Part shown: piece by piece, positions 3,724-64,000 of the stretch
Position numbering within the stretch: the stretch's first letter is position 1
How the letters are laid out: every line of letters begins with the position of its first letter
From: Cyanidioschyzon merolae
Lineage: Eukaryota
Assembly (NCBI GenBank): GCA_000091205.1
Contig: AP006492.2
Length of the DNA stretch: 64,000 nucleotides
Reading direction: 5' to 3' (one strand)
Translations under genes and position numbers: made by a program
The notes under the pieces: model-generated
Told to the model about the DNA's origin: nothing
The model's input: only the letters and a program-made list of their open reading frames with translations
Databases searched by the model: none

Positions 3724-4544
3724 GCGGTCTTTGTTAAGCGTTTCGCTTGGCGCGCGTTTTAGGCCAAAAGCGTCTTGTGCAAGCTGTGCATTGCAGGAAT
3801 GGCTCGCGTTTTTGGACCAGTTCGCAATACCTAGGCCTGAGGCACCCCAACAACCGCAGCATTCTTTTGAATCGTTTGGCGGAGAGGGCTGCATTCTGCG
3901 GATGCGCTGCTCGCCAGCGAAACACCAGAGGCGGTACCGGTCGCACGCATTACAGAATCAAATGGAACAATTCCTGCAACATAACTTGGACGTGCTCACT
4001 ATAGGTTTCGTCTCCTTCCAGTGCCAGCGACGACAGCTTTTCCGGGCTTTAACTCTCTCGGATCTCCGGCTTTAAGAACGCTGGTCTCTCCTGTAATTCC
4101 GGCTCGATTCTCAACAGTCGCAGCATGTTGCTGGCAGCGTTCAAGCCCGGATTTCGCAGTTTCCGGCCATTATCGACGCTAAAAATTGCGCAGGCAAACG
4201 TTGCGTGCGACGCTTCGTTTGCCATGATCATGTTCGTTGTATAGAGCCCGGGTACATACATCGCAGCGATGACTCTTGGAATTTTGCACAAGTGTTCCCG
4301 GATTTTCGCGAAACACCACCACGGCCTCCTTCTCCTCCGAGAGTCGACTTGTCGGATGTGAACGCTGGCTTCTTCGCTCTGTACGGGCACTTGACGCGTA
4401 TAGAGGTCTATCCGCGATGGTCGCTTCGGTTGCCGGGCCCCGGTGCCGTATCCGCCCAAAAACGGGCTTGTTTTGGGCGGTCTTTCGGCATCTCATTTCG
4501 CCAGCTATATGTACAATCGCACGCTGCTCCATTCGAGACAGGAT

Positions 4545-5190
4545 TCATGGAATGCGATGTCGCCGATGATGAAACAAGTGCTGTAAGGATACGCCAGGTT
4601 TGAAAAGGTGGTCGAGAAATTTGAATCTATCTTCGCTTTCATCATGCACGGCGCTGACGCGATGCCCTCTGGAACCGATTCCTGCGATGACGCACGCCCG
4701 AGTACGACATACTTTACCATGCAATCAGAAGAGACTCGGGTCCCTTGGAGTATAACCCATGAGAGCTATCAAGCTGCTGTTGCATGCCGGTTCATAGATA
4801 CTCGCAAGGAGACGAGGATCCATCTTTCGAACGGGTTCGATGAATGCTCTGGGCTAGTTCAGTTAACCTTGTGCAAGAGGATATTCAGAGATCGTCAAGA
4901 AACGACAACGAGTATTTTTCATTTTCGATTCAGCTGTGCGCTCGAGCTGCCTTGAAAAAGATACATCGAAACTCGAAGAATGCACGCGTTGATCACGCTA
5001 GACGTAAGGAACGAGGAACCGCGGGGTCTTGCCCATATGAACTGGATCATGCGATTGATTATGTTACCAAACCTTGTTCGAAAGCGTTGCAAATCATCTT
5101 GATTCCGTTCACGTAAACAATTCCAGAAGCAAAGCTTCATCGAAGCCACTCCGAAAACAAAATCCGGAATCCGGACACTATACATGAATC
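4545..5190 (+). repeat. dispersed repeat family 2 copy (shares the ~250-bp 3' module with 33350-33615)
   Basis: 5' block 'gaatgcgatgtcgccgatgatgaaacaagtgc' ~ 20890 'gaacgcgatgttgcccatgataaaacatgaatc'. 3' block 5075-5190 '...ccgaaaacaaaatccggaatccggacactatacatgaatc' ~ 33475-33590 '...ccgaaaccacaatccggaatcctggaactgcacatggatc'. Spurious ORFs share 'CFIIGDIAFHESC' with 'CFIMGNIAFTKSL'. Confidence 0.5.
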
Positions 5191-5415
5191 TTTAAGCCTC
5201 TATTGCTACTCTTTGAGTTTCAGCACTATACAACTGAAAAAGGTATGAAAAAATCTCATGGCATGAACAGAGCGAGCGGTTCAGTGCTCCGTTCGGATAC
5301 AACGCGACGGCCGCTTGTTGCGGTTTGTGTGTATGGGCGTGAACGTGCGCGGCACAGGAACGACGTCAGGGTTTCGACGGTTCTCCGGAATCGGGAATGT
5401 TTATATACTCGCTTT

Positions 5416-26814: not shown

Positions 26815-29800
26815 ATGGCACTTGCGAGCAACACGCTTCCAACGCTTCCTATTGAGGCAGCGTTGCTGACGGTTCTGGACGTTGGTATACACGGGAAGCG
26901 CGCTGCGGTACCAGGAAAACTACTAGGTTTGCGCACGAGCGCAGACATTGAGTCGGTGGTGAGGCGCGGTGAGCTGCCTTTTCGTGAGAGATTTCTTCTG
27001 GTGACGGCTGTCAGCCGCGACGGGCGTTCTATTCGAATCAGCGACGGCAAGAATAGCATCCTGGCGACGTGTTCGGAGCGGCTCTCGCAGGAAGCGGACG
27101 TACACGGAACGGTGCCGTTTCCGGTGTCTTTGCGCGACCGATGTGTATTTATGAACGGGTGTGTTCGGCTCAGTGCGGCACGTGACCTGGAATCAACGAT
27201 TACGGAGCCCGACGCGTGGGATCTCGCAGTGCGCGAGCACGCTGCCCGCCTGTACGGGCAGTGGTTTCGAAAGACGATGCTTGCGGGTGGCGGGACCCGA
27301 CCCTGGACTGCTTTTCTGCAACAGGTCACCATTGAGAGTTTCATTCGAGTCGAAGTCGAGCTGGTCAACACACAGACGACAGCATGGGCGTTTCCGAACC
27401 GAATGATGACCGGAGATGTGGTGGATGTGAACCAAAGCTTGCGAGTCAAAAGGAAACTGACGCAGTGCCTGATCCATCTGTTGGCACCAATTGAATACCG
27501 CGATAATGTGCCGGCGTATGCAGGGAGCGCATCGGCGAAGACAGGTGTTCGCGGTGCAGATGCGCTTCACGAGTTGCCTTGCTCCGATGCGGTACCATCC
27601 AATGAAACCTCCGGTGGGTATCCTCGGAATGCGTGTCCAGTCGAGGACGCGGGCTCAACAACCGGAGCCGTCCCACAGGCGCAGCACGCGCCAATACCGC
27701 GGCCTCTGGCTCTGCGTATGCGACTTGCAGCCAAACAGCGACCTGTCGAAGGATCAGACGATCCGATGCCACAAAGTGAGGCCGCTGATTCCTGTGCACC
27801 GATCAACTCCAGCAAATGCGATGGTGATGTTAGAGCGCAAGCGCCTCCGCTGAGGAAGAACGCGAAAATTGGTCAGTCTCATGAGCCGTTGCCGGACGCT
27901 ATGGCCACAGAAAGCAGCGGAGGAACTGATCAAGGCTCAGGTGCTAGCGCAAAGCATGCGGTTCATATCGAGAATCAGATCGCGGCCATGGCTTTGCCCA
28001 AAGTCGACCTGGCCCCAACTGGTAGCACGTGGGCGAATGTCGGCGACGCAGAGAAATCGAACACCGAAGCGCCCGAAAGCACCGTGGGTGGCACTTCCGA
28101 GAACGCCTTACTTCGGGGGAAAGAGCTCCGCGTTCTCTATAACGCACTGGAAGCGATGCGCCTGCCACCGAGTTCCTTGTCTGCATTAGAAGATGAGCAT
28201 GCAAGGGGTCCAGTAACGGAAATCGGCGCGCTCGGGTTGGCGCCTGCTCCGATTTCTGGCCCCGTGTCTGAGCAATGTGCATCTACCGAGGATGATCAAA
28301 TAGCCCCTGCGGTTGGCAGCCAGCAAAGCCAGCACACTGCTCTCACACCCGGGACGCCAACGGCATGCCCAACGAACGACGCTGTTGAGAACGCACAGCG
28401 AAATTTACATAGCGATCTGGTATGTGTCACGGAGTCTGTTGAAAGCGATGCCGTGCGCCGAGGAGCGCCTCCAGGAGCAAACACCATCCCTAGTGATGGT
28501 GATGACAAAAACGATGATGCGGCTCAAGCATGTCAGGATCATTCGGACGGTCGCAAACCATCGAGTGATGATCGAATACGCTCTCAGAAACGTATGCGCA
28601 TCTCACATTTGAGCTGCGACCGCAGAAGCCCTGAAAAACCCCAGGAGAGCGAGAGCGTCTGCACAAGTACGTCCCGAGAAACATTTCAGCAAGACAATAA
28701 CATTACGAACAGCGTTAGCACTTTCGAAGCAAACCTCATGAATATGAGCCCGGTACCGCGAAAGCGTTGCAAGGCTATTGTGCCAAGCAGCGCCACACGG
28801 ACACCTTCTGATGGACCCGCTCACGCCAGTAACGAACGACAAATCTCTCCCCAAGATCGCGCAGACGAGGCAACTGTGCGCGACAGCAATGGGACTGCGG
28901 CTGTAGCAATAGCCCCTGCATTCCAAGACACCGCAAACGGAACCTTGCCGCATAGGCAGTCGCAAAGGTCGCGCCAAACCCGCAACGCCGCTGTAACAGA
29001 CGGGGAAAATACGTCAGGTTCTCTGAATGCAACAGCACTGCCGCCGAAAAATCGCCGAGGTAAGAAGCCACGGCGGCGCGCTCCTCAGCCTATTGAAGAG
29101 ACGGGTCATTCCTCACCCGGGCAGGGCACGCGCAACAGCACGTTCGTCGGCCCCAGCAAAGCGTGCGACTCGTCCCAGCAAGCTCTGCAGCGCACACAAC
29201 TGGAGTGTCAGTTAGAAACGGCTGGCAAACACTCGAACCAGCACGAGTCAGTTCCTTTTGACTGCGCTCGCGACCAGACCAGTGACTCATCGACGACGAC
29301 AATGACGACGCAGCCACCACCAACATCACCACCATCGTTTTCTAGTACGGTACCGCCAGACGCTCAGCGCATTGCCGTAGAGTCTCCGCAGCTCGCGGAT
29401 TCAGCCGCATCGCCTGCTGGGCAAGAGCACCGCGGCCGCAAAACTCGCTCGGAACGGCGCCCCTTACCGGTGCATGCGCAGGATAGAGGTGATGGCGCAT
29501 GCAGGAATGCCACGTGTCCCGCTGGAGACAGCACCATCGACGCGCACGCATCTCCATTGATGACTGGCGAGCGTGATCGCACGCACCCGGTACGTGGAAG
29601 TGCGCGCGCTGCAGACGCGACTGCATGCGCTGATGGTCCGAAAAACGCTATGCAGGCTAGTGGCGAATTGCATGAGCGCCGCGATGCCCCCAGTGTGCCT
29701 TCAGATGATCTCCAGAGCCTCGTTGCGAATGGAACACCGCGAATGGCGCTGCTAACAGCTGGTACCGTCCAATCAAAGCGGTCTGAGGAGGAACGGTCCA

Positions 29801-30541: not shown

Positions 30542-31123
30542 TTACGGGCTTTTTCGGGTGACGCCCGACTGTTGTGCAGGCGGCGACAAAATCGTCTGCA
30601 GTGTGCGCTCCTCGGCGGCACTCCAGCGCCAGCGCTGCCCAACGATTTGCTGCGTCAGCTGCCTTATTTGCGTCTTCGTCAACAACCGCGGACTCGCCAG
30701 TGTCTTCGAGGTAAGCGACAGCGTGCCGCGTCGCCTCAGGACGGTGACGCCTACCAGACCGCCGAGCAGGGCGCCGCCAAGCCACAAACCACGCAGCACA
30801 GGATCAGTCCAAAAGATATCACTTTCTTGGAACCAAACACTTTGGCCGTACTCCTGTGTGAGATAGTCACGAATCGTCTCCGAATCCAGACCGTCCCGAA
30901 GCAGTTTCCGTACTCGGTCGCGTAGCGCTACAGCGGTGGGAGCGTTCGAAAACTCAATATTTTGACCACTGCCGCATTCTAAGCAGCGAATTGCTCTAAA
31001 AAGCGCCTTGGCCTTTTCGTTGAGCAAAATCTCTTTTTCATCGACCTGGTCTGCGGTACCCGCGGGGTTCCGCGGGTCAGACATGGCGCTCCCCAGGGAA
31101 ACGCATGGGTGCCAGGGAAGCAA
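30542..31123 (-). CDS. CCMH: CcmH-like cytochrome c-type biogenesis protein (System I / CCM pathway thiol-reductase component)
   Basis: 'FRAIRCLECGSGQNIEFSNAPTAVALRDRVRKLLRDGLDSETIRDYLTQEYGQSVWFQE' matches the CcmH core (LRCxxCQNQSIADSNAPIAxDLRxxVxExLxEGxSxxEIxDYLVxRYGDFVLY), including the CxxC. A TM anchor follows ('LWLGGALLGGLVGVTVL') and then a C-terminal extension, as in plant CCMH. Confidence 0.65.
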   Translation of the reverse strand: MLPWHPCVSLGSAMSDPRNPAGTADQVDEKEILLNEKAKALFRAIRCLECGSGQNIEFSNAPTAVALRDRVRKLLRDGLDSETIRDYLTQEYGQSVWFQESDIFWTDPVLRGLWLGGALLGGLVGVTVLRRRGTLSLTSKTLASPRLLTKTQIRQLTQQIVGQRWRWSAAEERTLQTILSPPAQQSGVTRKSP

Positions 31124-31305
31124 CGCTGACGATGGACGGTGACGTGCGTTGCCATCACAAGCGCAGCGGTCGATCGTCGGGAACGTTTCATTCCTTGTGT
31201 TTCAGCTCCATTCGATTTCAACTTAGACGCGATGTATAGCATGAGATCGAAATCACGATGCAATGCACCGGATAGAATGTAGACGAATTATGTGCAGTAT
31301 ATATG

Positions 31306-33615
31306 CTTTACTGAACAGTGCAAGGTGGACTGCATTCCTCATTCAGGTCAGTAATGCCTCAGTACAGAGATAATTCAGGAGCACTGCAAGAGCGAAGCAT
31401 AGGCACGCAGCGCCAGAACCGAAACTCTTAGAGATTGCTTGCGGTCGGTGTTAGAAACCGAACCGTTGATCAGTTTCGGCAAAGCAAAAGCGACGATGGA
31501 AGTCGCCACGGGCGTCTCTGTTTCCCAACAGCTTGTTGGTTCGGTCCTGAATACACTGGAATACAGCCGCGTAAGAAGAGTCCTAGTTTACGCACAGTCA
31601 TCTTGCACCGAAATCGCAACTATAGCGTTCCCGGAACGTCACGATCGATATGAAGCACGTGGACGTCTGTTAGTTTTTGCCAGTCGATGAGGCTCGCTTC
31701 GGACGAAATCGATCGGGGCGTACGTGGGTCTTCGCGGAGCAGGGAGCCTGCCGTACCTACGATCGAACTCGAAGAGAAGTAAGACATCAGCATCTGTTCT
31801 AGATTGATTGGATGCATTTCGCGGCCTCAGATTCGCTTGTAGAGAGGGCTCATATAACAGCACCGACTACATTGTCGAATCATTGAAGACTTTTCCCCGA
31901 AATCTGGCGGCGTCCGTCTATTGGACAACGTGGCATTGCACCATTCCCCTTGCGTTCAATCTTTTTCCCGATTGTTTAAGGGTGCAGCTGCTTTTCATTC
32001 CGCGCTACGCGCCGCGGTTCAACCCCGTCGAAGGAGCCTTTTCGATCGTGAAACGTAATGATAGCTCCACTGGGCGAATTGCTGAAACATTCAGTAAACG
32101 TAAGGTACATGAGCACATATTGATTTCCTTCCACAAGTCCTGCTCGCTTCGGGAAGGTACTCATAAAACGACATTAAGATGCGCATTCATTTTTGAAGCA
32201 AAAAATCCAAGGGATAGGTATGGACGTGCAAGTTGGAGATCCTGGAGGCTCGATGTGTCGCCGCCTACCGGGAAAAGCGACAAAATTCCCTTCTCGCCTC
32301 CCATCGAGGGAAGAAGAGCAGTTAACCAAGTAGATAATGATTGGGGATAGCCAAGAAAAGGTGTTTTCGCCCGGCAGTACGTTGGCGAGACTCTAGTCGC
32401 ACTAAGCGCACGAGTTCTAGGAATCCTTGGAACGGTTCGTGCAAGTAGAGGCAATAAACGCATCGAGTTCGTGAACCGAAACTCCAACGCCGCCATCCGT
32501 ATCAGACGAAATGCGGTGCGAAAGACGAGACCCGAATTGCTGATGGCATCCATGTTTCTGGGGCAGCCTTTCAGGCTCGAAGTGTGCCTGGATCTGAACT
32601 GAAACCGATAGGAGTCGGCTGGTCGCAACAGGCCGGAAGGCGCCAATTCGTGAGCGTATATTTACCCTCCATGGTCGTAGAACGTTTTCCGTTTCACTGA
32701 CGATCGATAGGGAGCTCGTACATGCACACAGCAATGCTTGGGACTCCTCCACCTGCCATTAGAACCGAACGACATAGGTTGCTCTGCAACTGCTTCCTTT
32801 TCCTCTCTGTTACCCTCGATATGAAATACGCTCAAAAATCATGGACTAAGAGCGCCGTGGCGAGCAGTCCAAGCATGTTGATTGCAGCGTCCAGGTCGCG
32901 CTTCTGTGCTCAATCAGGATCTGCGCTATTCATGTCATCCACGGGAGGTACGTGCGATCGCCACCTCACTTGCAGGTTTCATCTTCTTTGTCCACAGCTT
33001 CGGTATGCTGCTTACGACGATGACACCTGCGCGCGGTCGGATGTGCCCGTATTCATATGTATATACATCGGAGATCCCCCGACTTCGACCGCCAGCCTTT
33101 GGCGCGAAAACGCGTGCTGCATCGCTCCGCAAACGCCTGTGACGGGTACCGAAGGCTCCGGTTGATGCCTCCTCGTGCGTTCCTTGCGGCCGGTGTCGCA
33201 CGCCTCCATCAAGCGCTTGTCTGGGGCGATCCGCTCGGCGAGTACGCCGTCCGCTGGACGTGTAGGCGTACGCCGTCGCATTCGAGAGCGCCTCACAAAA
33301 GGCGATGTCGTGCCCGATGGACGGTGCGCACGAGTTGCACAGAAACAGCGATACAGAAAACAAGAAGCATGCGTGATTCGACCATGCCACACACGAGGCA
33401 GAGGAAAAGCCTCGAGACTCTTTTCTACGAACTGAATAATGATACCAGTTGTTTTTGGAACCATCGTTCGAGGGCGTCACGAATCACCCTGACGCGGTTG
33501 ACGGTACGAATTCCAGCGGCAAAGCGTCGATTGCGTCACTCCGAAACCACAATCCGGAATCCTGGAACTGCACATGGATCCGTGAGCCCTTATTGCATCC
33601 ATTTTGGACATCGAG
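31306..33615 (+). mobile_element. composite repeat: degenerate Tc1/mariner (IS630-Tc1-type) transposase remnant (31306-32344) joined to a ~1.27 kb non-transposase module (32345-33615); this is the most complete copy in the window
   Basis: The ORF fragment 31439-31690 gives the HTH-like N-terminus 'ISFGKAKATMEVATGVSVSQQLVGSVLNTLEYSR'. The ORF 31808-32350 contains 'LLFIPRYAPRFNPVEGAFSIVKR', matching the DDE_3 signature 'LLFLPPYSPDLNPIE..W'. The transposase is internally deleted and interrupted by stops. The same junction to the downstream module recurs at ~63340 and, divergently, within 50553-51790. No TIRs were confirmed. Confidence 0.6.
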
Positions 33616-34444
33616 GCTGTATATTTATGAAAACTTGCGGAAAAGAAATCGTGATGCAGATACAGAGCGAGTCGTTCAGTGTTCCATTTTAATCTTTGTT
33701 TTCCTTTCGACCATGGAGCCTCGTGCGCACCCAGCGGCACGCGCGTTGATGACGCCGGATCGATTCACTGTATCAGGGCCTCGTGGAAAAGCGAGCGCTA
33801 CCCGAAAACAAGTGAGGGATCTCGTCCGCTCAAGAGGTGCTACCAGTTTCGACTAATCCAAAAAAGGCACTGCTGCAACAGTCGAGGCTTTATCCAGCGA
33901 ATCTCCGGGTGCCGATCCGACCGTAATGCTTCGTGTCAGTCCAAAGCAGCCAATCAGGATCCTCCGGAGGCGATTCCACTTTCCACGAGCCCTCGGCCAA
34001 CGACCTCATCGAGGTAAGGAGTCTGGTCGATCGAGCGCCATGAGTCGTCCTCTATGGGCCGAGTATACAGCAGACGCTTCCTGAGACGCTGGATGCCCGC
34101 CACTGCCGCTGCCGCTGCCGCTGCCGCAATGGTCGTGGTCGTGGTCTACGTTCTGAGAGACAGCGGCCTTGCGACGCCCCGCGCACGTCGGCTTGAAGCG
34201 CAACAATGCCTGGCACGAAGCAAGGAACGCTCTTGGGTCCCGGCTCTAACACCAGCTTGCGTAGCCAAGCCTGCCGACGGTGCGGAACAACCCGCTGGAG
34301 GAACTCGGCAAACCGAAGCCAGCTCGCCGGCTCGGCGCTCCCGTCAGGTTCGTGCAAGTGTGCGCTCCGTGGCAGCCGCGTCCATCGTATAGCGCTCCTG
34401 CATTGCAACAGCGCCCGGAACGTGGTTTTCTGAGACGCACACCA

Positions 34445-34790
34445 TAGGCCCGCGCGCACATGCGATGTGCATGCGGATCGCGCGCCTCTGGGCAGCAGCA
34501 TTGCAGCAGCGGTCAGAGCGTGATCCAGTGGTATATTCTGGCAGCGCGCGCACATGCGATGTGCATGCGGATCGCGCGCCTCTGGGCAGCAGCATTGCAG
34601 CAGCGGTCAGAGCGTGATCCAGTGGTATATTCTGGCAGCGCGCGCACATGCGATGTGCATGCGGATCGCGCGCCTCTGGGCAGCAGCATTGCAGCAGCGG
34701 TCAGAGCGTGATTCCATGACACTCACCACAGATGCGCGTACAGCCGATGTGCATGCGGATCGCGCGCCTCCGTGCAACGTGTACGTTCAT
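34445..34790. repeat. tandem repeat, 94-bp unit x ~3.6 copies, 240-580 bp upstream of the GAPDH start
   Basis: 'cacatgcgatgtgcatgcggatcgcgcgcctctgggcagcagcattgcagcagcggtcagagcgtgatccagtggtatattctggcagcgcgcg' recurs at 34457, 34551 and 34645, with a partial fourth copy to ~34790. Confidence 0.9.
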
Positions 34791-35018
34791 CGCTTTCGCG
34801 TATCGAGGAGGCGCCTTGGCAGTGCGCTGCCCGATGCGCCCACGAGGTGATGCAGTACCTCCACAGCTGATACGGCCCGCGTTGGTGATGCGGACGACGC
34901 ACCCTGCTCACAACGAGCCGCCGATACAACTCCGTCAATTGCATTGGTGTTGCTCACGAGCGAAATCAGTGCTTTCTTGCACGTTTTGCGCCCATCGGTA
35001 GAAACGTTCGTTTAGTAG

Positions 35019-36059
<1,041 letters not shown>

Positions 36060-36472
36060 GCGATGGAGATCACGATCAGTATCTGGACGGCGGTAGGAAC
36101 GTTCTTCAAATCTCGGTAAAATACGACGGACCATGCAGAGCGTTCCATTGCATTTCGAAGGTTCAGTCATCGATGTGCCTGCCAAATGTTTTTCTCGGGC
36201 CTGGTTACCCAATCCGACACTGGAAAAGCGTTGCCAGGGTCTCGCACTTCGGGCCTCGAGCCCGCCAGCGAGCCATCGACGTAATCCGAAGATGCTTTCG
36301 GATCGAGTCGAATGGGTGCCCGCGTTCGGTGCTGCTCGATGCCTCAGTGTACTCATGGCAACGTCGTCTTGGATATACTCGTGTCCGACCAGAATGGTAC
36401 GAGGTTGCTCGTTTAGAACGGGCATACGCACGAACGTTTGCGTCTGTTTCCACCGTCACAAGCACCAGTTCT

Positions 36473-37313
36473 TGCTGGTATTTTCTGCAACTGCTTCCTT
36501 TTCCTCTCTGTTACCCTCGATATGAAATACGCTCAAAAATCATGGACTAAGAGCGCCGTGGCGAGCAGTCCAAGCACGTTGATTGCAGCGTCCAGGTCGC
36601 GCTTCTGTGCTCAATCAGGATCTGCGCTATTCATGTCATCCACGGGAGGTACGTGCGATCGCCACCTCACTTGCAGGTTTCATCTTCTTTGTCCACAGCT
36701 TCGGTATGCTGCTTACGACGATGACACCTGCGCGCGGTCGGATGTGCCCGTATTCATATGTATATACATCGGAGATCCCCCGACTTCGACCGCCAGCCTT
36801 TGGCGCGAAAACGCGTGCTGCATCGCTCCGCAAACGCCTGTGACGGGTACCGAAGGCTCCGGTTGATGCCTCCTCGTGCGTTCCTTGCGGCCGGTGTCGC
36901 ACGCCTCCATCAAGCGCTTGTCTGGGGCGATCCGCTCGGCGAGTACGCCGTCCGCTGGACGTGTAGGCGTACGCCGTCGCATTCGAGAGCGCCTCACAAA
37001 AGGCGATGTCGTGCCCGATGGACGGTGCGCACGAGTTGCACAGAAACAGCGATACAGAAAACAAGAAGCATGCGTGATTCGACCATGCCACACACGAGGC
37101 AGAGGAAAAGCCTCGAGACTCTTTTCTACGAACTGAATAATGATACCAGTTGTTTTTGGAACCATCGTTCGAGGGCGTCACGAATCACCCTGACGCGGTT
37201 GACGGTACGAATTCCAGCGGCAAAGCGTCGATTGCGTCACTCCGAAACCACAATCCGGAATCCTGGAACTGCACATGGATCCGTGAGCCCTTATTGCATC
37301 CATTTGGACATCG
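36473..37313 (+). repeat. 5'-truncated copy of the ~1.27 kb module (matches 32788-33615 at high identity)
   Basis: Near-identical ORF translations in the track (32722/36438, 32935/36636, 33057/36758, 33175/36876). Direct nucleotide comparison shows homology ending at '...ttattgcatccatttggacatcga' in both copies. Confidence 0.8.
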
Positions 37314-38536
37314 ATCTGTACATCTAAAGAGCGTTCGGGAAACTAATCGAAAAGCAGGATGCGAGTAAGCAATTCGGTGCTCCATCTTCATATGAAGCGA
37401 CTCAAGCCCTGCAGGTTCAATCGATGTCTCTGCTCGCGGAGGCTCACTGACGGATTCGCCACAAGCCATCAGAAACCAGACGACTTTGTTCAGTGCTAGA
37501 ATAACGTTGTCCTGGTACTAGCAGTCGCGAACCTCCTGGTTTTCTTCTAGCGGCATTCCCAGTTGTTTGCTCTATGCGTTGTGTGCACGGGTGCTCGCCA
37601 GAGCCCGCATTCGTTATCTTTTTGGAGCATATTTGCTTCTCAGGACATGCTCGAGTTGCAGCCCTCGCGCCAATACCTCCCTGCATTCGATACACGTATT
37701 CGAAAGGCTCGCGGTGCTGGCGACCGCGCTTCCGTGCTGGACGGTGAACCGGACAACCCGCGTGCCTACCGCGCTGCACCAAAGGTGCGAACCCTCGGAC
37801 CCAGTGGTACTACAGAAGACGTTTCAGGCTGGTTCTCGAAGAGCCCCAGCCTTCACAGCTCCCGGACGGGGCAGCAGCACGTGCCCGACGCGTGAACGTC
37901 AACGCTGGACGCAGACAGAGTCTGGGGTGCGCAGAGGTCCTCGGCGCTGGACACTGCTTCCCCTGCGCGTTTCCGTCCGCAACGTTTCCATTTTCCCGCG
38001 CCCAGTTCGCGACAACGAAGCCTTCGATGTTTGCGTGCGCCTGGACACGGCCACTTTGGTGCGTCGAGCAGTGCGCAAGCTCACCAAGTGTCTGTGCAAT
38101 CGGTGCTACTGCACCGACGCCACCACGCAATAACGAGTACAACCGTGCCTGTCTCGAAATCGCTCGCTCTTGCAGCACGCGATGCTGTGAGGTCTAGCGT
38201 CTACGATCGCTAGCGTTGAAGCGCGTTCGATGGGTCCTTTCTTATCGACCTGTTGTTGACAAGAGCCGCGAAGGATGCTCTCGTCAGCACGCACTGAATA
38301 CCAGCAGCAGAATAGGACGTTTCCTGGCGTGTCCATCAATGTCGTATCAGCAGCGCGTGCCTCGATAGCCCAGTGGCAGCGGCGACGGCGGCGGCAGCAG
38401 CAGCGATGCCCTTCTTGACCTCGCAGCACTGCACAGAAAGGCACTGACGTGTCGAGGAGGTCGCCAACGGAGCGATAACAACGCTGACCTGGGTTGGGCG
38501 CTCGAGGACGGAGTTTACTGGTCCCTGGAGGTTCTC

Positions 38537-41083
38537 ATGGCGCGTAAGCACAAGGTTGGAAAACACCGACTGGACAGGTACTACCACCTGGCGAAGGAGC
38601 ACGGCTACCGCTCCCGAGCAGCCTTCAAACTGCTTCAGCTGAACCGACGGCATGGTTTTCTTGGCCGCGCTTCCCGTGGTGTCGTGGACCTGTGTGCGGC
38701 TCCTGGCGGTTGGATGCAGGTGTGTCGTCAGCACATGCCCGTTGCGGCGCCGTGTATTGGTGTTGATCTCGTTCCGATCGCTCCTATTCGCAACTGCACG
38801 ACTATTGTCGCTGACATCACTTCCGAAAAGTGTGTGCGGTTGATAAGAAATGCACTCACTTCCTTTGGCGAGGTGCTTGATCCAAGCGGCCGCGTGGCAA
38901 CTGGTGATCTCGGTGTGGACGTAGTGCTCAGCGACGCCTCTCCAAATATGGGCACCGCTTGGCTACAAGACGCCTATAACCAGGTGGAACTGACGCTCCA
39001 CGCCTTGCGGATTGCGAGCACGCTTCTCCAGAGAGGCGGCTGGTTTGTGAGCAAACTCTTCCGTAGCGCTGACTCGGAAGCCTTTCTGCTCGTTGCGCGT
39101 CGTCTCTTTCAGCGAGTATACGTTACCAAGCCACCGGCTAGCAGGCAACAGTCTGCGGAGATCTACGTCGTCTGTAAGAGCTATTTGGCTCCAGCGCGGC
39201 TCGAGGCGAACCTATTCGATCCTCGGCAGGTTTTTCGGGAGTCGACGTCTCATGCGAATGCAGTGGCTGACGTAGCTTCCCCGGATGATGCTCGTCAACG
39301 GCAGCAGTTGCAAAGCAAGGACAGAAAGTTTCGCCGCCAGCTCCTCTCTGGACGCCGATCGGCCGTGCCCGACGATGTCGAGGCCATCAACGGCACAACC
39401 AAGTATAGGACCTGTTCGCTGAGAACATTTTTAGAGTCGTCATTTCCGGGGATAGTACTAAGTACCCATAATTCGATTGAAATTATTGAAGAAGACGCGC
39501 TGCCTGAACCTGTTCGCCTTCTAGTCAACGCTGAAATCAGAGCGCTTTGCAAAGATCTCGGAGTCTGTGGACCGAAAGATTTTCGCCGCCTCTTCAAGTT
39601 CTGGGAAACTTCCCGCCGCGTCCTGTTTTGTGCGGAAAAGAGCCAGAAGCAAGCAGGTAGTACTGTCCCCGAATCTGGCGTTTCGGAAGAGCCGATGGTG
39701 GATCGGTCCGCGGCATCGTCTACGATGGCATCCACTACGGGGCGAGAGAAGCGTTTGGAGGCCAAGGCCGCTCGAGAGCGTGCTCGAAAGCTCGAGCGCC
39801 AGAGGCAACGCGGGGCTCATCTCGATGCGAACGCCAACGTCGATGAGGACACAGGTTTCTCGAATCTGTTTTCGTTGCGTGAAGCGCGTGCTGCAATGCA
39901 AACGGGGTATTTTGAGGAAGTTGAAACGAGTGCATTGGAATCCAGCGCACTGGATTCAGAACAAGATGGAGCAGACGCGAGCGAAGAAAGTGGCTCTGAC
40001 GCTGCCGGTGCACACAGCGAAAGCTTTGTAGACGATCAGACGATGTCCAGTGATGACGATGGTCATGGTCAGGATGCGTCCGTGAATCTGAATATGTCCG
40101 CAGATGAGCCAATCCAGAGTGACAGTGATGTCGACCTGGACAATGAAATCCAAAACGCACAGCAGCTGGTTTTAGAGGACGACCCCAATATTCCGACGCA
40201 GCTCAAAGCTGGAGCCCAGCGCTGGCTCCATAGGCTCGGCATTCGCTCACTGGACGCGTTGCAGATTCCTGATGCCGCAGATCTCCTCCAGGCATCAGTT
40301 CTGGAAGCAGAAAATGCGAGCATGCTCACTGACGCGCACTTGTCGGACTCGTCGACATCGTCGTCGTCGTCGACATCGTCGAGCGAGCCGGCAGAAGGAC
40401 ATGGTTACCTGGGGAACACACCCGCCGCCACGCACGACCAGCACCAATCGACAGTAACCCGGGAAGATGCCATCAGTGCCGATGCAGGTACCAATACAAA
40501 CAAGATTCGACAGCTGCTGGGTACCATGGACGAGCGCACACGAGCAGAGCTGCGCACGATCGCGCGTCACTACATGCTTCGACGTTCGGGTCGCGAGGCG
40601 CTCATCGATTCTACCTACCATCGTCATGCGTTTGACGATCCCGAGAGTCTCCCGCAATGGTTTCTTGCGGATGAGCAACGTGCACGAAAAGCACCGCAAA
40701 TCGTCGACCCCGCCGAGGTCGACGCTGCAATTGCGCAGCTGGGGGCGCCCTTTGAACACCTACCAAAGCGCGTTCGGGAAGCCCGGCAGCGACGGCAGGC
40801 ACGCCTCCAGCGGCGACTTGAGGCCGCTCGAGAGCGTGCCGAGGCCATCGCTCGTGCGCCGGAGATGAATACGGCGAGCAAAATACAGCAAGTTGCACGT
40901 GTGATGCGTCGAGCACGCGCTCAGAGACGACAGCGGCCAGTGCTTGCGGTTCTGCAGGGCAATCGCGCGGTGCCGCTAGCTGGCGGCCATCAGAAACCCA
41001 AGTCACGGGGGCGCGTCCGATACAAACTCGTTGACCGTCGACTCAAGGCCGACCTGCGTGGACGACGCAAAGCGCGCCGCTAA
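38537..41083 (+). CDS. SPB1: AdoMet-dependent pre-rRNA 2'-O-methyltransferase SPB1/FTSJ3
   Basis: N-terminus 'MARKHKVGKHRLDRYYHLAKEHGYRSRAAFKLLQLNRRHGFLGRASRGVVDLCAAPGGWMQV' matches the Spb1/FtsJ fold. The C-terminus is long, acidic and basic, with the Spb1 C-terminal K/R-rich tail. Confidence 0.9.
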   Translation: MARKHKVGKHRLDRYYHLAKEHGYRSRAAFKLLQLNRRHGFLGRASRGVVDLCAAPGGWMQVCRQHMPVAAPCIGVDLVPIAPIRNCTTIVADITSEKCVRLIRNALTSFGEVLDPSGRVATGDLGVDVVLSDASPNMGTAWLQDAYNQVELTLHALRIASTLLQRGGWFVSKLFRSADSEAFLLVARRLFQRVYVTKPPASRQQSAEIYVVCKSYLAPARLEANLFDPRQVFRESTSHANAVADVASPDDARQRQQLQSKDRKFRRQLLSGRRSAVPDDVEAINGTTKYRTCSLRTFLESSFPGIVLSTHNSIEIIEEDALPEPVRLLVNAEIRALCKDLGVCGPKDFRRLFKFWETSRRVLFCAEKSQKQAGSTVPESGVSEEPMVDRSAASSTMASTTGREKRLEAKAARERARKLERQRQRGAHLDANANVDEDTGFSNLFSLREARAAMQTGYFEEVETSALESSALDSEQDGADASEESGSDAAGAHSESFVDDQTMSSDDDGHGQDASVNLNMSADEPIQSDSDVDLDNEIQNAQQLVLEDDPNIPTQLKAGAQRWLHRLGIRSLDALQIPDAADLLQASVLEAENASMLTDAHLSDSSTSSSSSTSSSEPAEGHGYLGNTPAATHDQHQSTVTREDAISADAGTNTNKIRQLLGTMDERTRAELRTIARHYMLRRSGREALIDSTYHRHAFDDPESLPQWFLADEQRARKAPQIVDPAEVDAAIAQLGAPFEHLPKRVREARQRRQARLQRRLEAARERAEAIARAPEMNTASKIQQVARVMRRARAQRRQRPVLAVLQGNRAVPLAGGHQKPKSRGRVRYKLVDRRLKADLRGRRKARR

Positions 41084-41918
41084 TGCGACACAGCAGGCTT
41101 CCAGACTCTGTATCTTGTCCACGGAGCGTTGACAGCGCCCAGCGTTTCCGTGTGTGTGTGTGTGCGCGCGCGCTGTGATGCACGGCGCACCAGGTCAGCG
41201 CCAGCAGCATGAAAGGCGGTGCGCTGCGCAAATTACCGGCTTCGAAGCCGCCTACAGGTACCCGTAAACCGCTCTCCCGTGTGCTGTTGCACGGATGGTA
41301 GGCGCGCTGGCACAGGCGCTGAACTTCCCTGCACAACATCCCGCAAACCTGATGCGTATTCGAGTCCAGCTCTTTTGCGCCCAGCCGTCATTCGTATATT
41401 CCGAGTAAATCTGCGCGTTGGAAACCGACGATAGGGCCCACGCACCATCACCAAGCGAAGACCCGGTGCTTAGCATTCGTTCTAGCTACTGAGCTGGTCG
41501 AAGGCATCGTGCCGCGAAAGCATGCCGGCAATCGCAGACTCTCCGTACACAACGCGACGATACCGAGTCCCAATCTTACGCGTCGGTTCAATGACGCGTC
41601 GAAGAGAACCTCACGATGCGACCGCGAAGCGTTGCTATCTCCGGGCTGCATCCGCTCTGGCGCTACAGGCGCTATAGCGGACGCTCATAGCTACTCGATG
41701 CCTGGTGGAACGAACGACATGATCAGAATCTCCGAGGGAACGTATGGGTTACGGGCCTTGACTGAAGATAGAGCAATGGACATATTCCCCGGTGCGGATA
41801 TCAAGCACGCCAATGAGCATCTGGAGTCCGCATAAACACTCTATCAGACGCAATGCGCTCACGCTGGTCAAAATATCATTAGCCGAGCATCAGGCAGTCG
41901 CACGGACACCGCCCCCGA

Positions 41919-42153
41919 TGCAGAGCAGCGCAATGTAGAGCAGAGCAATACAGAGCAGAGCAATACAGAGCAAACCAATGCAGAGCAAACCAATGCAGAG
42001 CAAAGCAATGCAGAGCAGAGCAATGCAGAGCAAAGCAATGCAGAGCAAAGCAATGCAGAGCAATCCAATGCAGAGCAGAGCAATGCAGAGCAAACCAATG
42101 CAGAGCAGAGCAATGCAGAGCAGAGCAATGCAGAGCAGAGCAATACAGAGCAG
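41919..42153. repeat. minisatellite, 15-bp unit (gcagagcaRRgcaat) x ~16
   Basis: Read directly: 'cagagcaaagcaatgcagagcagagcaatgcagagcaaaccaatg...'. It produces spurious repetitive ORFs on both strands (MQSKA.../LLCSAL...). Confidence 0.9.
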
Positions 42154-42349
42154 CGCGCCGCCGCAACGCGGCGCACCAGTCGGCTTCAATTATTCTACAT
42201 CTGCGACTTGCTGAAGCGCACGTAAGAGCCCTGCCTCGGTCACCTATGGAGGACGTGACGCGACAAGAATCGCACGATCTCATTTGATTCAGGGGAGTAA
42301 TTGTTACAGGGAAATATCTTTACCGACTGTAGGAAATAGTGAGCACGGA

Positions 42350-50039: not shown

Positions 50040-50552
50040 GCACTTTCTCTTCTGGTTAGCACATGAGATGCGCACTGCTTCTACCACGGTGTCTAGTGCA
50101 GTGCAGGAGGACGCTCTGGTAGCAAGTATGAGGTGCAGCACGCCGAAGTCCGCGGCTACAACGATCGTCGCTCGTGGGATCGCCGAGTTCGTATGCAGAG
50201 ACGTCTGCGAAAAAAGCCCTGCTTGCGAGCGTTTTGGTATGCATTCCTGTATATATGGCTCTAGATACCTCTATATTCCTGTGTTGATGTATTCCAGCAT
50301 GTATGCTTGTATGAATGCCAGCATGACTTTATGACTACCTGTGTGGATGTCGTCCTGTATGTCTTCCTGTTTGCACGCCGGCTTATTGCAAGCCATACCT
50401 CGTCGACGTCGATGCCCATAAAGTCTTTCTGCTCAGTTTTGTTCCACCTCGCAGAGAGTAATCGAACGATTGTTCGAAGTGTATAGCTGGAACTCGAAAT
50501 CACCATGCCAAGTACTTTATAGATCGGAGAAGCATTGCCTGCAGGATGCGTT

Positions 50553-51790
50553 CTTTACTGAACAGTGCAAGAAGGACTGCATTCCTCCTTCAGGTCAGTC
50601 GTACAACAGTGCTCAGATGCCTGAGGAACAATCAAAGAAACAAGGAGATGCATTCCGCGTAAAAAACCGATATTTTTCAACACTGCTTGCGGTCAGTGGT
50701 AGAAACCGACCCATCGATCGCCTTATGGAAAGCAAAAAAGACGATTGGAGTCGCCACGGGTGTCGCTGTTTCCCAACAGCTTGTTCGTGTGGTCTTGAAA
50801 TCTCTGGGATACAGTCGCTTCGGAAAATTCGGTAGGCGCGTGTATGGGTACTTGCGGAGAAGGGCGCCCATTGTATGTAAAATCGAACTCGGAGCGAACG
50901 ACGACATCATCCTCTGTCCAAGCTCGAGGGGATTCATTTGACGGCCGCAGTCTCGCTCCTGGAGAGGGCACACACAAGAGCGTCAAGCACTTCGTCGAAC
51001 CATTGAAGACTATTCCCTGACTTTTGGGGACTTTCTTCCACTAGACAACCCGGTATTTCACCGTTCTGCTTGCGTTCGGGCTTTTGCCGATTGTATACGG
51101 GTACAGCTGCTTTTCATTCCGACGTGCACCCAGCGGTTCAACCCTTTCGAAGGAGTGTTTTCGATCGTGGTACGATAATGATCGTTCCACTGGGCGAATG
51201 ACTGAAGCGTCCAGCACATGGTGACACCAGGAGCACATGACGGCTTCTCCCCGCAAGTCCGTCTCATTCCGCGAAGGTCCTCACCTAAAGGATAAACAAG
51301 CACATTCATTTCCAAGCGATAAAAAATCCACGTGATGAACTCGGATGCACTCTTCAGAAGATCGACATGGAAAAGTGCCAGCGGAGCGCTTGGGTGATAG
51401 AAAAGTTCGGCAAGCTGACAGCGCAGCAAATGGCGCAGAGGGCACGGGATCCAGTACTCCCTGCACTGGAGCGTTCAAAGAGCGTCAAGAAACGCACAGA
51501 GCTCTTGAACCGGCACCTTCACGCCGCCATCCATATCAGAGGATATGCGGTGCGAGAGACGAGACACGAGCCGCTGACGCTGCCCGATTCTGTTCTGGGG
51601 CAGCGTCCCAGACTCGACGTGAGCCTGGATCAAAACCGAAACCGATAGGAGTCGGCTGGTCCAACGACGCTGGGAGGCATCTGCGCGTTTTCAGACATCT
51701 ATCCAGCCTGAACAGTTGTGGAGCGTTTTTCGTTTTACGAATCGTGCACGCATCCGGAGCGTGTGCGCTGGGCAACAACGAGACTCGCGA
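50553..51790 (+). mobile_element. second, more diverged and internally deleted copy of the Tc1/mariner-like composite element
   Basis: The 5' end 'ctttactgaacagtgcaag...' matches 31306. The ORF 50687-50941 gives 'SIALWKAKKTIGVATGVAVSQQLVRVVLKSLGYSR', homologous to 31439-31690. The DDE tail 'RVQLLFIPTCTQRFNPFEG' is at ~51100. Positions 51525-51690 are homologous to 32470-32650. Confidence 0.55.
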
Positions 51791-63104: not shown

Positions 63105-64000
63105 CTTTCAGCGCAACAGAGTGCCGCCACGGTTGCGTGTCATCAAATGCGTTTTCACGGTTTTCAGCAGATGCGTACGAAGCGCATTCATTTGAAGGTA
63201 TCAAAAATCCACGGGGAAGACATGGACATACAAGTAGAGGATCCTGGATGGACGTCATAGCCGACTGCTCGAAAAAAACGAATAAAGCCGTCGTCTCGGT
63301 GACTGTCCAGCGACATAGAGCAGTGACGAAGACGAGAGAGAAGGAGAGTGGAGATAGCCAAGAAAAGGTGTTTTCGCCCGGCAGTACGTTGGCGAGACTC
63401 TAGTCGCACTAAGCGCACGAGTTCTAGGAATCCTTGGAACGGTTCGTGCAAGCAGAGGCAATAAACGCATCGAGTTCGTGAACCGAAACTCCAACGCCGC
63501 CATCCGTATCAGACGAAATGCGGTGCGAAAGACGAGATCCGAATTGCTGATGGCATCCATGTTTCTGGGGCAGCCTTTCAGGCTCGAAGTGTGCCTGGAT
63601 CTGAACTGAAACCGATTGGAGTCGGCTGGTCGCAACAGGCCGGAAGGCGCCAATTCGTGAGCGTATATTTACCCTCCATGGTCGTAGAACGTTTTCCGTT
63701 TCACTGACGATCTATAGGGAGCTCGGACATGCACACAGCAATGCTTGGGACTCCTCCACCTGCCATTAGAACCGAACGACATAGGTTGCTCTGCAACTGC
63801 TTCCTTTTCCTCTCTGTTACCCTCGATATGAAATACGCTCAAAAATCATGGACTAAGAGCGCCGTGGCGAGCAGTCCAAGCACGTTGATTGCAGCGTCCA
63901 GGTCGCGCTTCTGTGCTCAATCAGGATCTGCGCTATTCATGTCATGCACGGGAGGTACGTGCGATCGCCACCTCACTTGCAGGTTTCATCTTCTTTGTCC
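63105..64000 (+). mobile_element. third copy of the composite element (transposase-tail region plus module), truncated by the window edge
   Basis: 63346-64000 aligns to 32347-33005 at high identity (the ORF 63255-63653 on the minus strand matches 32161-32646). 63105-63345 aligns, more divergently, to 32190-32345. Confidence 0.75.

What the first reader, a model, noticed from the sequence alone, without database searches (positions are those of the whole stretch)
31306..37313. GAPDH locus bracketed by direct repeats of the same transposon-derived module
Copy 1 (32345-33615) and the 5'-truncated copy 2 (36473-37313) of the ~1.27 kb module lie in the same orientation, about 1.4 kb upstream and 0.4 kb downstream of the single-exon GAPDH gene (35028-36059). 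A highly expressed housekeeping gene sitting between about 0.84 kb of near-identical direct repeats is a substrate for ectopic recombination. That could drive excision, circularisation or tandem amplification of a ~3.7 kb GAPDH cassette, or it may record that the gene arrived with the element. It is also an assembly hazard, since the segment could be collapsed or mis-joined.
Basis: seen in the sequence. Interest (0 to 1): 0.55.

Follow-up and report, generated by a model that had tools for sequence, protein, structure and literature searches.

The report
Relocated GAPDH copy between converting repeats

Summary
Two co-oriented copies of one module flank GAPDH, at 32783-33600 and 36484-37301, with 1 mismatch in 818 nt and a spacing of 3701 nt.

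The window is C. merolae 10D chromosome 10, and the gene is CMJ250C.

The "module" combines two lineage-specific repeat families:
- T, a decayed IS630/Tc1-mariner-like transposase relic.
- C, a dispersed repeat of about 1.35 kb with seven copies in this window.

Both flanking C copies are old. Their ends are only 56-72% identical, and identity drops sharply inside the element. The near-identity therefore comes from recent non-allelic gene conversion, not from recent insertion. A third copy 28 kb downstream shows the same pattern.

In sister genera nine flanking genes are collinear, but CcmH and Spb1 lie 0.9-1.4 kb apart with no GAPDH between them. GAPDH there sits next to phytoene synthase. 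C. merolae keeps that ancestral copy as CMM167C. CMJ250C is a young paralogue (dS 0.64), and its homology to the parent covers only the coding sequence plus 213 nt of 3' flank.

So the gene is a newcomer at this locus, but nothing shows that the repeat carried it. Metagenome contigs contain deletion, tandem and relocation junctions through the repeat. These are either assembler mis-joins or real recombinants, and I could not tell which.

The parts
30542..31084 (-). CcmH gene (BAM80358.1), the left anchor of the conserved syntenic block.
   Evidence: Pfam CcmH. Exact match to the 10D protein. The ortholog sits next to Spb1 in sister taxa.
31233..32680 (+). T: a decayed IS630/Tc1-mariner-type transposase relic with stop codons and frameshifts. 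It is not annotated as a protein in 10D.
   Evidence: A stop-bridged translation hits DDE_3 (E=1.3e-4) and NCBIfam IS630 transposase (E=3.5e-6), both below the curated cut-offs. The diverged copy at 50480-51678 hits the same profile region. No frame-specific conservation. No terminal inverted repeats found.
32680..33693 (+). C copy 1 (upstream repeat): a member of a C. merolae-specific dispersed repeat family of about 1.35 kb. This copy carries an internal deletion of about 380 nt.
   Evidence: Family alignments. The 3' end carries the motif TGTTCCATTT, the inverse of the family's 5' AAATGGAACA.
32783..33600 (+). Gene-conversion tract in copy 1: 818 nt with 1 mismatch to 36484-37301.
32350..32993 (+). 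Segment 98.9% identical to the third copy at 63351-64000. Identity falls below 75% upstream of 32350, which marks a second conversion boundary.
33694..35032 (+). S: a unique 1.34-kb spacer and presumed promoter region of CMJ250C. It has no homology to the parent gene's upstream region.
34451..34776 (+). 94-nt tandem repeat (3.4 units) about 260 nt upstream of the GAPDH ATG. Copy number varies among strains or assemblies.
35037..36059 (+). GAPDH CMJ250C (340 aa, cytosolic GapC type). It is the derived paralogue of CMM167C.
36060..36272 (+). 3' flank still homologous to the 3' flank of the parent gene. This is where parent-daughter homology ends.
   Evidence: Shuffle test z=18 here, against z=1.1 for the next 145 nt.
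36386..37391 (+). C copy 2 (downstream repeat). Family homology begins about 66-100 nt upstream of the identity tract, and the copy has its own diverged 3' tail.
36484..37301 (+). Gene-conversion tract in copy 2.
37392..38536 (+). Unique spacer upstream of Spb1.
   Evidence: Contiguous with GAPDH and the repeat in L011.
38537..41083 (+). Spb1 rRNA methyltransferase gene, the right anchor of the syntenic block.
63176..64000 (+). Third co-oriented T+C copy, next to MCM6 (CMJ261C). It runs off the window end.
   Evidence: All ten listed contigs that approach from the MCM6 side end at 62286-63835, nine of them inside this copy.
50480..51678 (+). Diverged T copy (71-75% identical to 31233-32641).
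3949..5286 (+). Full-length C-family copy, about 60% identical to the others. Further copies lie at 20416-21377 (+), 25314-26451 (-) and 46972-48311 (+).

Best explanation
The stretch 31233-37391 is a C. merolae-specific block of about 6.2 kb. It lies inside an intergenic spacer (CcmH to Spb1) that is otherwise conserved and short in sister genera.

The block contains four kinds of sequence:
- A dead IS630/Tc1-mariner-like transposase relic (T).
- Two co-oriented old copies of a lineage-specific dispersed repeat (C).
- A unique 1.3-kb spacer.
- CMJ250C, a young inter-chromosomal paralogue of the ancestral cytosolic GAPDH CMM167C.

Shown:
- The two C copies are ancient and independently diverged at their ends.
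- Their central 818 bp are 99.9% identical in strain 10D.
- The identical stretch is less homogeneous in another strain.
- The third copy 28 kb away shows the same sharp boundary of high identity.

Inferred: non-allelic homologous recombination, of the gene-conversion type, repeatedly copies sequence between these nearby repeats. Crossovers between the same repeats would delete or tandemly duplicate a 3.7-kb unit carrying CMJ250C. Because a second GAPC gene exists, both outcomes could be viable.

Inferred with less confidence: CMJ250C arrived as a transcript-sized copy, because homology to the parent runs only from 4 nt before the ATG to 213 nt after the stop codon. That suggests an RNA-mediated copy or capture of a short DNA fragment, with a new promoter region acquired afterwards. 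It does not look like cargo of the repeat.
For: - Identity of the window: exact 10D proteins and exact primer matches.
- Repeat anatomy: 1 mismatch in 818 nt, then 72%, 56% and random. Both tails align to the family consensus. Family homology in copy 2 starts 66 nt before the identity tract. There is no homology further upstream.
- Third copy: 98.9% identical from 32350 onward and below 75% before that.
- Strain contrast: in L011 the two copies differ at 7 of 168 sites where 10D has none. 10D's homogenised sequence is a mosaic of the two haplotypes seen elsewhere.
- Family status: C copies are about 60% identical to one another, with seven in the window. C and T are absent from 87 kb of sister-taxon loci.
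- Synteny: nine window genes are collinear and co-oriented in Cyanidiococcus L041 and in metagenome contig L042. The CcmH-Spb1 gap there is 934 and 1388 nt with no GAPDH, against 7.45 kb here.
- Ancestral position: sister-taxon GAPDH orthologs lie as tandem pairs upstream of phytoene synthase and CAP.
- Parent gene: C. merolae contigs L043 and L044 keep a GAPDH at that position. The 10D CMM167C primers match it exactly. Moriyama et al. 2015 (PMC4586181) refer to a GAPC-2 gene.
- Age and rate: dS=0.64 and dN=0.065 between the paralogues, while dS is saturated against Cyanidiococcus. CMJ250C shows about 5-fold faster non-synonymous change.
- Homology limits: -4 to +213. The flanks are not similar (z=1.1, 0.4 and 2.9, against z=18 for the 3' UTR).
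Against: - Gene conversion is inferred from identity patterns only. No event has been observed.
- A precise recent replacement by some other mechanism would leave the same pattern.
- The haplotypes from other strains come from metagenome consensus contigs, which can be mosaics.
- The retrocopy-like origin lacks a poly(A) remnant and target-site duplications. It cannot be tested by intron loss, because the parent has no introns.
- The 1.34-kb spacer S has no known source. Its length is roughly the excess over the sister-taxon spacer, so it may have arrived together with the gene.
- At the parent locus a T fragment lies upstream and a C copy downstream of GAPDH, in the same order and orientation. 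That leaves some room for repeat-mediated movement.
Confidence: 0.72

Rival explanations
1. The gene arrived with the element. GAPDH was captured between two copies of a DNA transposon and moved as a composite unit, or moved by recombination between repeat copies at the donor and target loci.
For: - GAPDH is a newcomer flanked on both sides by the same family in direct orientation.
- The parent locus also has a T fragment upstream and a C copy downstream, in the same order and orientation.
- The excess length of the spacer over sister taxa roughly equals the whole block including S.
- The C family has short inverted-repeat-like ends.
Against: - Parent-daughter homology stops at -4 and +213. 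The intervening flanks are not similar.
- The C copy at the parent locus is 62-65% identical to these copies, against about 60% to any other C copy. It has no special relationship to them.
- No terminal inverted repeats or target duplications were found at 31233 or 37391.
- The transposase relic is dead, and C copies sit downstream of several unrelated genes, so adjacency to a gene is common.
Confidence: 0.13
2. The repeats currently generate structural variants in wild populations: deletion of the 3.7-kb GAPDH unit, tandem duplication, or relocation of the unit to the third repeat copy beside MCM6 through a circular intermediate.
For: - Eleven contigs from eleven samples read GAPDH, repeat core, copy-1-type tail, then spacer S, which is a tandem or circle junction.
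- One 96-kb contig has locus A without S-GAPDH (L029) and carries S-GAPDH after the MCM6-side copy (L001).
- The repeats are 818 bp at 99.9% identity.
- A second GAPC gene would make loss tolerable.
Against: - Every alternative join passes through SNP-free stretches of 154-186 nt or more, where short-read graphs collapse.
- L011, from a near-identical strain (3 differences in 3.1 kb), has the reference arrangement.
- In 10D the gene after MCM6 (CMJ261C) is numbered CMJ262C and is PDR1.
- The same assemblies contain obvious chimeras, L002 and L015.
- No contig carries two GAPDH copies.
Confidence: 0.27
3. The two flanking copies are young: a recent transposition or a simple recent duplication of an ~0.84-kb segment.
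For: 99.9% identity over 818 nt.
Against: - Identity drops abruptly inside continuing family homology at both ends.
- Copy 2 has its own 5' and 3' family sequence that is strongly diverged from copy 1.
- Another strain shows lower identity in the same tract.
- The family is otherwise about 60% identical, with a dead transposase.
Confidence: 0.07
4. The arrangement is an assembly artefact of the reference, a collapsed or mis-joined repeat.
For: Repeats of this kind break or mislead short-read assemblies.
Against: - The 10D sequence was finished from BACs with all gaps closed (PMC1955436).
- L011 independently joins spacer, GAPDH, repeat and Spb1. L003-L006 join repeat, spacer, GAPDH and repeat.
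- The two copies have distinct flanks and distinct tails.
Confidence: 0.03

Closest known systems
Low-copy repeats that undergo non-allelic gene conversion and NAHR (for example, segmental-duplication pairs flanking dosage-variable genes, or delta/LTR and Ty repeats in yeast).
   Same: Co-oriented repeats a few kb apart. A tract of near-identity is embedded in older, diverged homology. The predicted products are deletion or tandem duplication of the enclosed gene.
   Different: The repeats here are relics of a small lineage-specific dispersed family in a 16.5-Mb, repeat-poor algal genome. No recombinant has been verified with reads.
Dispersed, relocated gene duplicates, including processed retrogenes (GAPDH retrocopies are the classic case in mammals).
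   Same: The copy is on another chromosome. Homology is limited to the coding sequence plus 3' UTR. The upstream region is new. Protein evolution is faster in the relocated copy while the parent stays in the ancestral syntenic position.
   Different: No poly(A) tract or target-site duplication is visible. The parent has no introns, so the key retrogene test is unavailable. The copy is intact, conserved and expressed (qPCR target in PMC4586181).
IS630/Tc1-mariner DNA transposons and their non-autonomous derivatives.
   Same: Two independent copies of T give weak hits to the same C-terminal part of IS630/DDE_3 transposase profiles. The C family has short inverted-repeat-like ends and many dispersed copies.
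   Different: Scores are far below the curated cut-offs. There is no intact ORF, no clear long TIRs and no TA duplications. T and C occur mostly apart, so they may be two unrelated families.
Repeats already reported for C. merolae 10D (Nozaki et al. 2007, PMC1955436): eight transposase-related class II elements, and 253 copies of a ~3.2-kb interspersed element with a truncated ORF related to WSV486.
   Same: Same genome, same dispersed intergenic distribution, and the same weak similarity to bacterial-type transposases.
   Different: I could not test the WSV486 similarity or map the published elements onto T and C. The published account does not describe this GAPDH locus, the conversion tracts or the relocation.
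Tandem GAPDH duplicates in sister Cyanidiophyceae (Cyanidiococcus L039, Cyanidium-like L040).
   Same: Repeated duplication of the cytosolic GAPDH gene within the class.
   Different: Those duplicates are tandem and sit at the ancestral locus beside phytoene synthase. The C. merolae extra copy is on another chromosome, between repeats.

Membership tests
Glyceraldehyde-3-phosphate dehydrogenase (cytosolic GapC type) | Full-length Gp_dh_N and Gp_dh_C domains, with no N-terminal extension. | tested here: met
   Pfam E=4.5e-35 and 1.1e-64. 340 aa starting [16 protein letters not shown]. The closest named relatives are cytosolic GAPDHs.
IS630/Tc1-mariner DNA transposon | DDE transposase coding region. 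| tested here: inconclusive
   Two diverged copies each hit DDE_3 (21-22 bits, cut-off 28.6) and NCBIfam IS630 (27 bits, cut-off 100) at equivalent profile positions. Both are riddled with stop codons.
IS630/Tc1-mariner DNA transposon | Terminal inverted repeats and TA target-site duplication. | tested here: inconclusive
   No TIR pair was found for 31100-33800. The C family shows only a ~10-nt AAATGGAACA/TGTTCCATTT motif at its ends. Three of seven window matches fall at C termini. Target duplications could not be defined.
Composite transposon carrying a passenger gene | The whole unit is bounded by functional outer ends and found as a unit at more than one site. | tested here: not met
   No outer TIR or TSD. 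The parent locus shares only -4 to +213 with this locus. The only second site (L001) is an ambiguous contig join.
Processed retrogene | Homology to the parent is confined to the transcribed region, and the copy sits at a new genomic location. | tested here: met
   Homology runs from 35033 to 36272 only. The parent is CMM167C on another chromosome.
Processed retrogene | Poly(A) remnant, target-site duplications and intron loss. | tested here: not met
   There is no A-rich tract after 36272 and no flanking direct repeats were noted. Intron loss cannot be tested because the parent has no introns.
Low-copy repeat pair undergoing non-allelic gene conversion | A tract of near-identity with sharp boundaries inside older, diverged homology. 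| tested here: met
   99.9% over 818 nt, against 56-72% in the tails and no similarity between the copies over the ~66-100 nt before the tract, where copy 2 still carries family sequence.
Low-copy repeat pair undergoing non-allelic gene conversion | Tract extent or content differs between lineages. | tested here: met
   L011 has 7 differences in 168 nt where 10D has none. The 10D sequence is a mosaic of the two haplotypes. Caveat: these are metagenome consensus sequences.
NAHR-generated copy-number variant | Recombinant junctions verified by reads that span the repeat. | not testable with these tools
   Only contigs are available, and junctions pass through collapsed repeat sequence.
C. merolae 253-copy interspersed element (Nozaki 2007) | Truncated ORF weakly similar to WSSV protein WSV486, with a mean size of ~3.2 kb. 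| not tested
   No WSV486 sequence was available. ORFs in the module have no Pfam hit and are not annotated in 10D.

The most novel reading that the evidence does not exclude
In natural hot-spring populations the 3.7-kb unit (repeat tail, spacer, CMJ250C, 3' flank, repeat core) behaves as a recombination-mobilised cassette. It pops out by crossover between the flanking C copies and can be lost. It can be tandemly amplified. It can also re-enter another C copy 28 kb away beside MCM6. That last arrangement is what the 96-kb contig shows, with locus A empty and the MCM6-side copy filled, and the eleven GAPDH-repeat-spacer contigs fit the tandem case. This would give C. merolae a homologous-recombination route to copy-number and position variation of a glycolytic gene.
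Probability: 0.2. Interest if true: 0.55.

Novelty: new member of a known kind. Interest (0 to 1): 0.3.

Why it matters
C. merolae 10D is used as the model of a minimal, almost repeat-free eukaryotic genome with very efficient homologous recombination.

This locus shows that its few dispersed repeats still drive concerted evolution between copies kilobases apart. It also shows that one of its two cytosolic GAPDH genes is a recent inter-chromosomal arrival that evolves about five times faster than the copy left at the ancestral site.

Practical points:
- CMJ250C should not be treated as the single housekeeping GAPDH.
- Gene-targeting constructs or PCR assays that use this region can recombine with the 818-bp repeat or with the third copy.
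- Short-read assemblies of cyanidiophyte populations will mis-join here.

If the alternative junctions are real, the locus would be a tractable natural example of repeat-mediated copy-number change.

Tried and rejected
1. I first read contig L001 as proof of a second GAPDH cassette just beyond the window end. I dropped this. The same 96-kb contig lacks the cassette at locus A. Its joins pass through SNP-free stretches. In 10D the gene numbered directly after MCM6 (CMJ261C) is PDR1 (CMJ262C).

2. I read contigs L003 and L004 as circular. Their overlapping ends are explained by a unitig that runs from a shared k-mer in copy 1 to the same k-mer in copy 2. That is the reference order.

3. I took L002, which has a sugar-transporter fragment fused 134 nt upstream of GAPDH, as a third genomic context. 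I now treat it as a probable chimera. The fused part has a different composition, the gene is truncated, and only about 10 nt are shared at the junction. L015 starts with an internal GAPDH fragment joined to the upstream region.

4. I looked for coding constraint in the module by comparing six-frame translations between copies. All frames are equally conserved, so there is none.

5. Rfam and tRNA scans of 30-39 kb found nothing.

6. An exact-protein look-up of a small ORF in the Spb1 upstream spacer found nothing.

7. I assumed from memory that CMJ042C was the parent GAPDH. Its primers do not match the ancestral-locus gene, whereas the CMM167C primers do.

8. I tested whether GAPDH and the downstream C copy were duplicated together as a block. 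The spacer between them is not similar (z=1.1), and the C copies are no closer to each other than to any other copy.

9. I searched for the origin of spacer S in the window and in all fetched loci. Nothing was found.

10. Literature searches for the locus tags CMJ250C and CMJ042C, and for phytoene synthase IDs, found no description of this locus.

Full report
**Source of the window.** The window is Cyanidioschyzon merolae strain 10D, chromosome 10 (839,707 bp). Seven window-encoded proteins match 10D GenBank entries exactly: BAM80351, 80354, 80357 (CMJ247C), 80358 (CcmH), 80359 (GAPDH), 80365 (CMJ259C, in its shorter annotated form) and 80366. Published qPCR primers for CMJ250C match the GAPDH ORF exactly at 35702-35722 and 35744-35764. 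The gene in the finding is therefore CMJ250C. It is a complete 340-aa GAPDH of the cytosolic type with both Pfam domains.

**The observation.** A self-BLAST of the window gives a co-oriented match of 32783-33693 to 36484-37391. Binned identity shows two very different parts. The core, 32783-33600 versus 36484-37301, has one mismatch in 818 nt. The next 90 nt are only 72% and then 56% identical, and after that there is no similarity. Spacing is 3701 nt. A third co-oriented copy lies at 63176-64000 and is cut by the window end. It is 98.9% identical to 32350-32993 but below 75% identical upstream of 32350.

**What the module is.** It combines two repeat families.
- T (31233 to about 32680) has a second, 71-75% identical copy at 50480-51678. 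Stop-bridged translations of both copies hit the same C-terminal portion of the DDE_3 and IS630-transposase profiles (E about 1e-4 and 2-3.5e-6). Both hits are well below the curated cut-offs.
- C (about 32680-33693 and about 36386-37391) belongs to a family whose full-length members are about 1.35 kb. Those members are at 3949-5286, 46972-48311, 20416-21377 and 25314-26451 on the minus strand, and they are about 60% identical to each other.
- Family ends carry a short inverted motif, AAATGGAACA ... TGTTCCATTT. Three of the seven window matches to it sit at C termini in the right orientation, with 2.8 matches expected by chance.
- There is no frame-specific conservation, Pfam hit, Rfam hit, tRNA or clear long TIR. 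The module ORFs are not annotated proteins in 10D.
- Nozaki et al. 2007 (PMC1955436) reported eight transposase-like class II elements with weak similarity to bacterial transposases, and 253 copies of an interspersed ~3.2-kb element. T fits the first description. I could not test whether C belongs to the second.
- Both families are absent from 87 kb of sister-taxon sequence.

**Why the two copies are so alike.**
- Both flanking C copies have their own family-type 3' tails, which align to the family consensus but are 28-44% different from each other.
- Copy 2 also carries 66-100 nt of family sequence upstream of the identity tract that is unlike the corresponding part of copy 1.
- So an 818-nt block of near-identity sits inside a pair of old, independently diverged elements, with sharp boundaries at both ends. 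That is the signature of non-allelic gene conversion rather than recent insertion or simple duplication.
- The boundary at about 32350 between copy 1 and the third copy is a second example.
- In another strain (contig L011) the two copies differ at 7 of 168 sites where 10D has none. Relative to the two haplotypes seen there, 10D's homogenised sequence is copy-2-like for most of its length and copy-1-like at the end. Conversion has therefore continued since these strains diverged. The caveat is that metagenome contigs are consensus sequences.

**Is GAPDH native to this locus? No.**
- In Cyanidiococcus yangmingshanensis (L041) and a related metagenome genome (L042), nine genes of the window are collinear and co-oriented: DDT protein, polyprenyl synthase, CMJ247C-like, CcmH, Spb1, Tim44, GCP, the PP-loop protein and the mitochondrial RNA polymerase.
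- CcmH and Spb1 there are 934 and 1388 nt apart and there is no GAPDH hit. In C. merolae the gap is 7.45 kb.
- The other C. merolae spacers that hold a T or C copy are each about 1-1.4 kb longer than in Cyanidiococcus (coordinates). This fits lineage-specific insertion of these elements.
- GAPDH orthologs in Cyanidiococcus (86% aa) and a Cyanidium-like genome (81% aa) lie as tandem pairs immediately upstream of phytoene synthase, CAP, a ~1000-aa protein and prefoldin.

**The parent copy.**
- C. merolae keeps a GAPDH at that ancestral position. Contigs L043 and L044 carry GAPDH, phytoene synthase, CAP, the ~1000-aa gene, prefoldin and adenylosuccinate synthase.
- They contain C and T family copies, so they belong to the C. 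merolae lineage.
- The 10D primers for CMM167C match their GAPDH exactly.
- 10D therefore has two GAPC genes, in line with the mention of a gene "GAPC-2" in Moriyama et al. 2015 (PMC4586181).
- CMJ250C and the CMM167C-type gene are 88% identical in protein. Between them dS=0.64 and dN=0.065, whereas dS against Cyanidiococcus is saturated.
- By the three-way dN comparison, CMJ250C has accumulated about five times more non-synonymous change. The duplication therefore post-dates the split from Cyanidiococcus.

**How it arrived.**
- Sensitive BLAST finds homology between the two loci only from 35033 to 36272. That is 4 nt before the ATG to 213 nt after the stop codon.
- The 3' flank scores z=18 against shuffles. 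The next 145 nt score z=1.1, spacer S scores z=0.4, and the 300 nt before the ATG score z=2.9.
- C copies at about 60% identity are readily detected by the same search, so neutral flanks of similar age should have been visible.
- The copy is thus transcript-sized, which fits an RNA-mediated copy or capture of a short fragment. There is no poly(A) remnant or target duplication, and the parent has no introns to test for intron loss.
- The parent locus also has a T fragment upstream and a C copy downstream in the same order. That C copy is 62-65% identical to the copies here, against about 60% to any other, and C copies often sit just downstream of genes. I do not take this as evidence that the repeat carried the gene.
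- The 1.34-kb spacer S, which contains a (GCCGCT)n run and a 94-nt tandem repeat, is unique in everything I could search. Its origin is unknown.

**Do the repeats produce rearrangements?**
- Metagenome assemblies show how troublesome they are. Contigs from the CcmH side stop about 1.36-1.83 kb past the CcmH start, at the start of the repeated part. All ten listed contigs from the MCM6 side end at 62286-63835, nine of them inside the third copy. GAPDH contigs are almost all under 5 kb.
- Contigs consistent with the reference order exist: L011, and L003-L006.
- Eleven contigs from eleven samples read GAPDH, repeat core, copy-1-type tail, then spacer S. That is the junction expected from a tandem duplication or a circle.
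- One 96-kb contig has locus A with a single hybrid repeat and no S-GAPDH (L029). It places S-GAPDH after the MCM6-side copy instead (L001).
- All of these joins cross stretches of 154-186 nt or more with no distinguishing SNPs.
- A near-identical strain has the reference order (L011 differs from L001 at 3 of 3127 positions).
- The 10D gene numbered after MCM6 (CMJ261C) is PDR1 (CMJ262C).
- The same assemblies contain clear chimeras.
- I therefore rate real structural polymorphism at roughly one in four. Only long reads or read depth can settle it.

**Verdict.** The repeats are a recombination substrate, they do exchange sequence, and GAPDH is indeed a newcomer here. The repeats are old rather than freshly transposed. 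The gene is one of two GAPC paralogues. There is no evidence that the element transported it.

This is a well-characterised example of known processes: dispersed gene duplication, lineage-specific repeat insertion and non-allelic gene conversion. It sits in a much-studied finished genome, and the history of this locus does not seem to have been described. Interest is modest.

Noticed in passing
window 34451-34776: A 94-nt tandem repeat lies about 260 nt upstream of the CMJ250C start codon. 10D has four unit starts, most metagenome contigs have three, and one has a single unit. This is either a variable minisatellite in the presumed promoter or assembly collapse.
   Followed up: partly
L039 8515-11023 and L040 8445-11023: Sister Cyanidiophyceae carry cytosolic GAPDH as tandem pairs beside phytoene synthase. 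In Cyanidiococcus the pair is an old one (62% aa). In the Cyanidium-like genome the pair is 93% identical in nucleotides, and that identity is confined almost exactly to the coding sequence (1033 nt), which suggests conversion limited to the CDS.
   Followed up: partly
window spacers at 20134-22595, 24124-26815, 47049-48969 and 50141-51909, compared with L041: Every intergenic spacer of the syntenic block that holds a C or T copy is about 1-1.4 kb longer in C. merolae than in Cyanidiococcus. The two repeat families account for most of the spacer expansion in this 40-kb block.
   Followed up: partly
window 60267-63062 (minus strand): The MCM6 ORF in 10D is 882 aa from its first ATG. Eight of the ten metagenome contigs listed from the MCM6 side, and L001, have a 931-aa ORF. 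The difference is a frameshift about 50 codons in, so 10D either carries an N-terminal frameshift or the longer form is an extended upstream reading frame.
   Followed up: no
window 56174-57211: The window ORF is 345 aa and occurs exactly in a JGI contig. The 10D annotation of this gene (CMJ259C, BAM80365.1) is 244 aa, so the annotated start may be too far downstream.
   Followed up: no
window 24849-25346: A 124-nt tandem repeat, four copies at 98-99% identity, lies in the spacer between polyprenyl synthase and CMJ247C. It abuts the minus-strand C copy at 25314-26451.
   Followed up: no
window 41414-42156 and L043 1679-2017: A further dispersed family: window 41414-41749 is 61% identical to sequence upstream of the ancestral-locus GAPDH. 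Short tandem repeats (15/60-nt register) lie next to it at 41915-42156, downstream of Spb1.
   Followed up: no
L002 1-944 and L015 1-89: Two metagenome contigs begin with foreign sequence fused to the GAPDH upstream region. One is a GC-rich N-terminal half of a sugar transporter. The other is an internal GAPDH coding fragment. Both are probably assembly chimeras, and they are a warning about other joins in these assemblies.
   Followed up: partly
window 31196-31215: Immediately before the T relic, the sequence TTTCAGCTCCATTCGATTTC resembles the 3' terminal motif of the C family (TTCAGTGCTCCATTT) in the same orientation. It may be a solo end of another C copy, or it may be part of the T terminus.
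   Followed up: no
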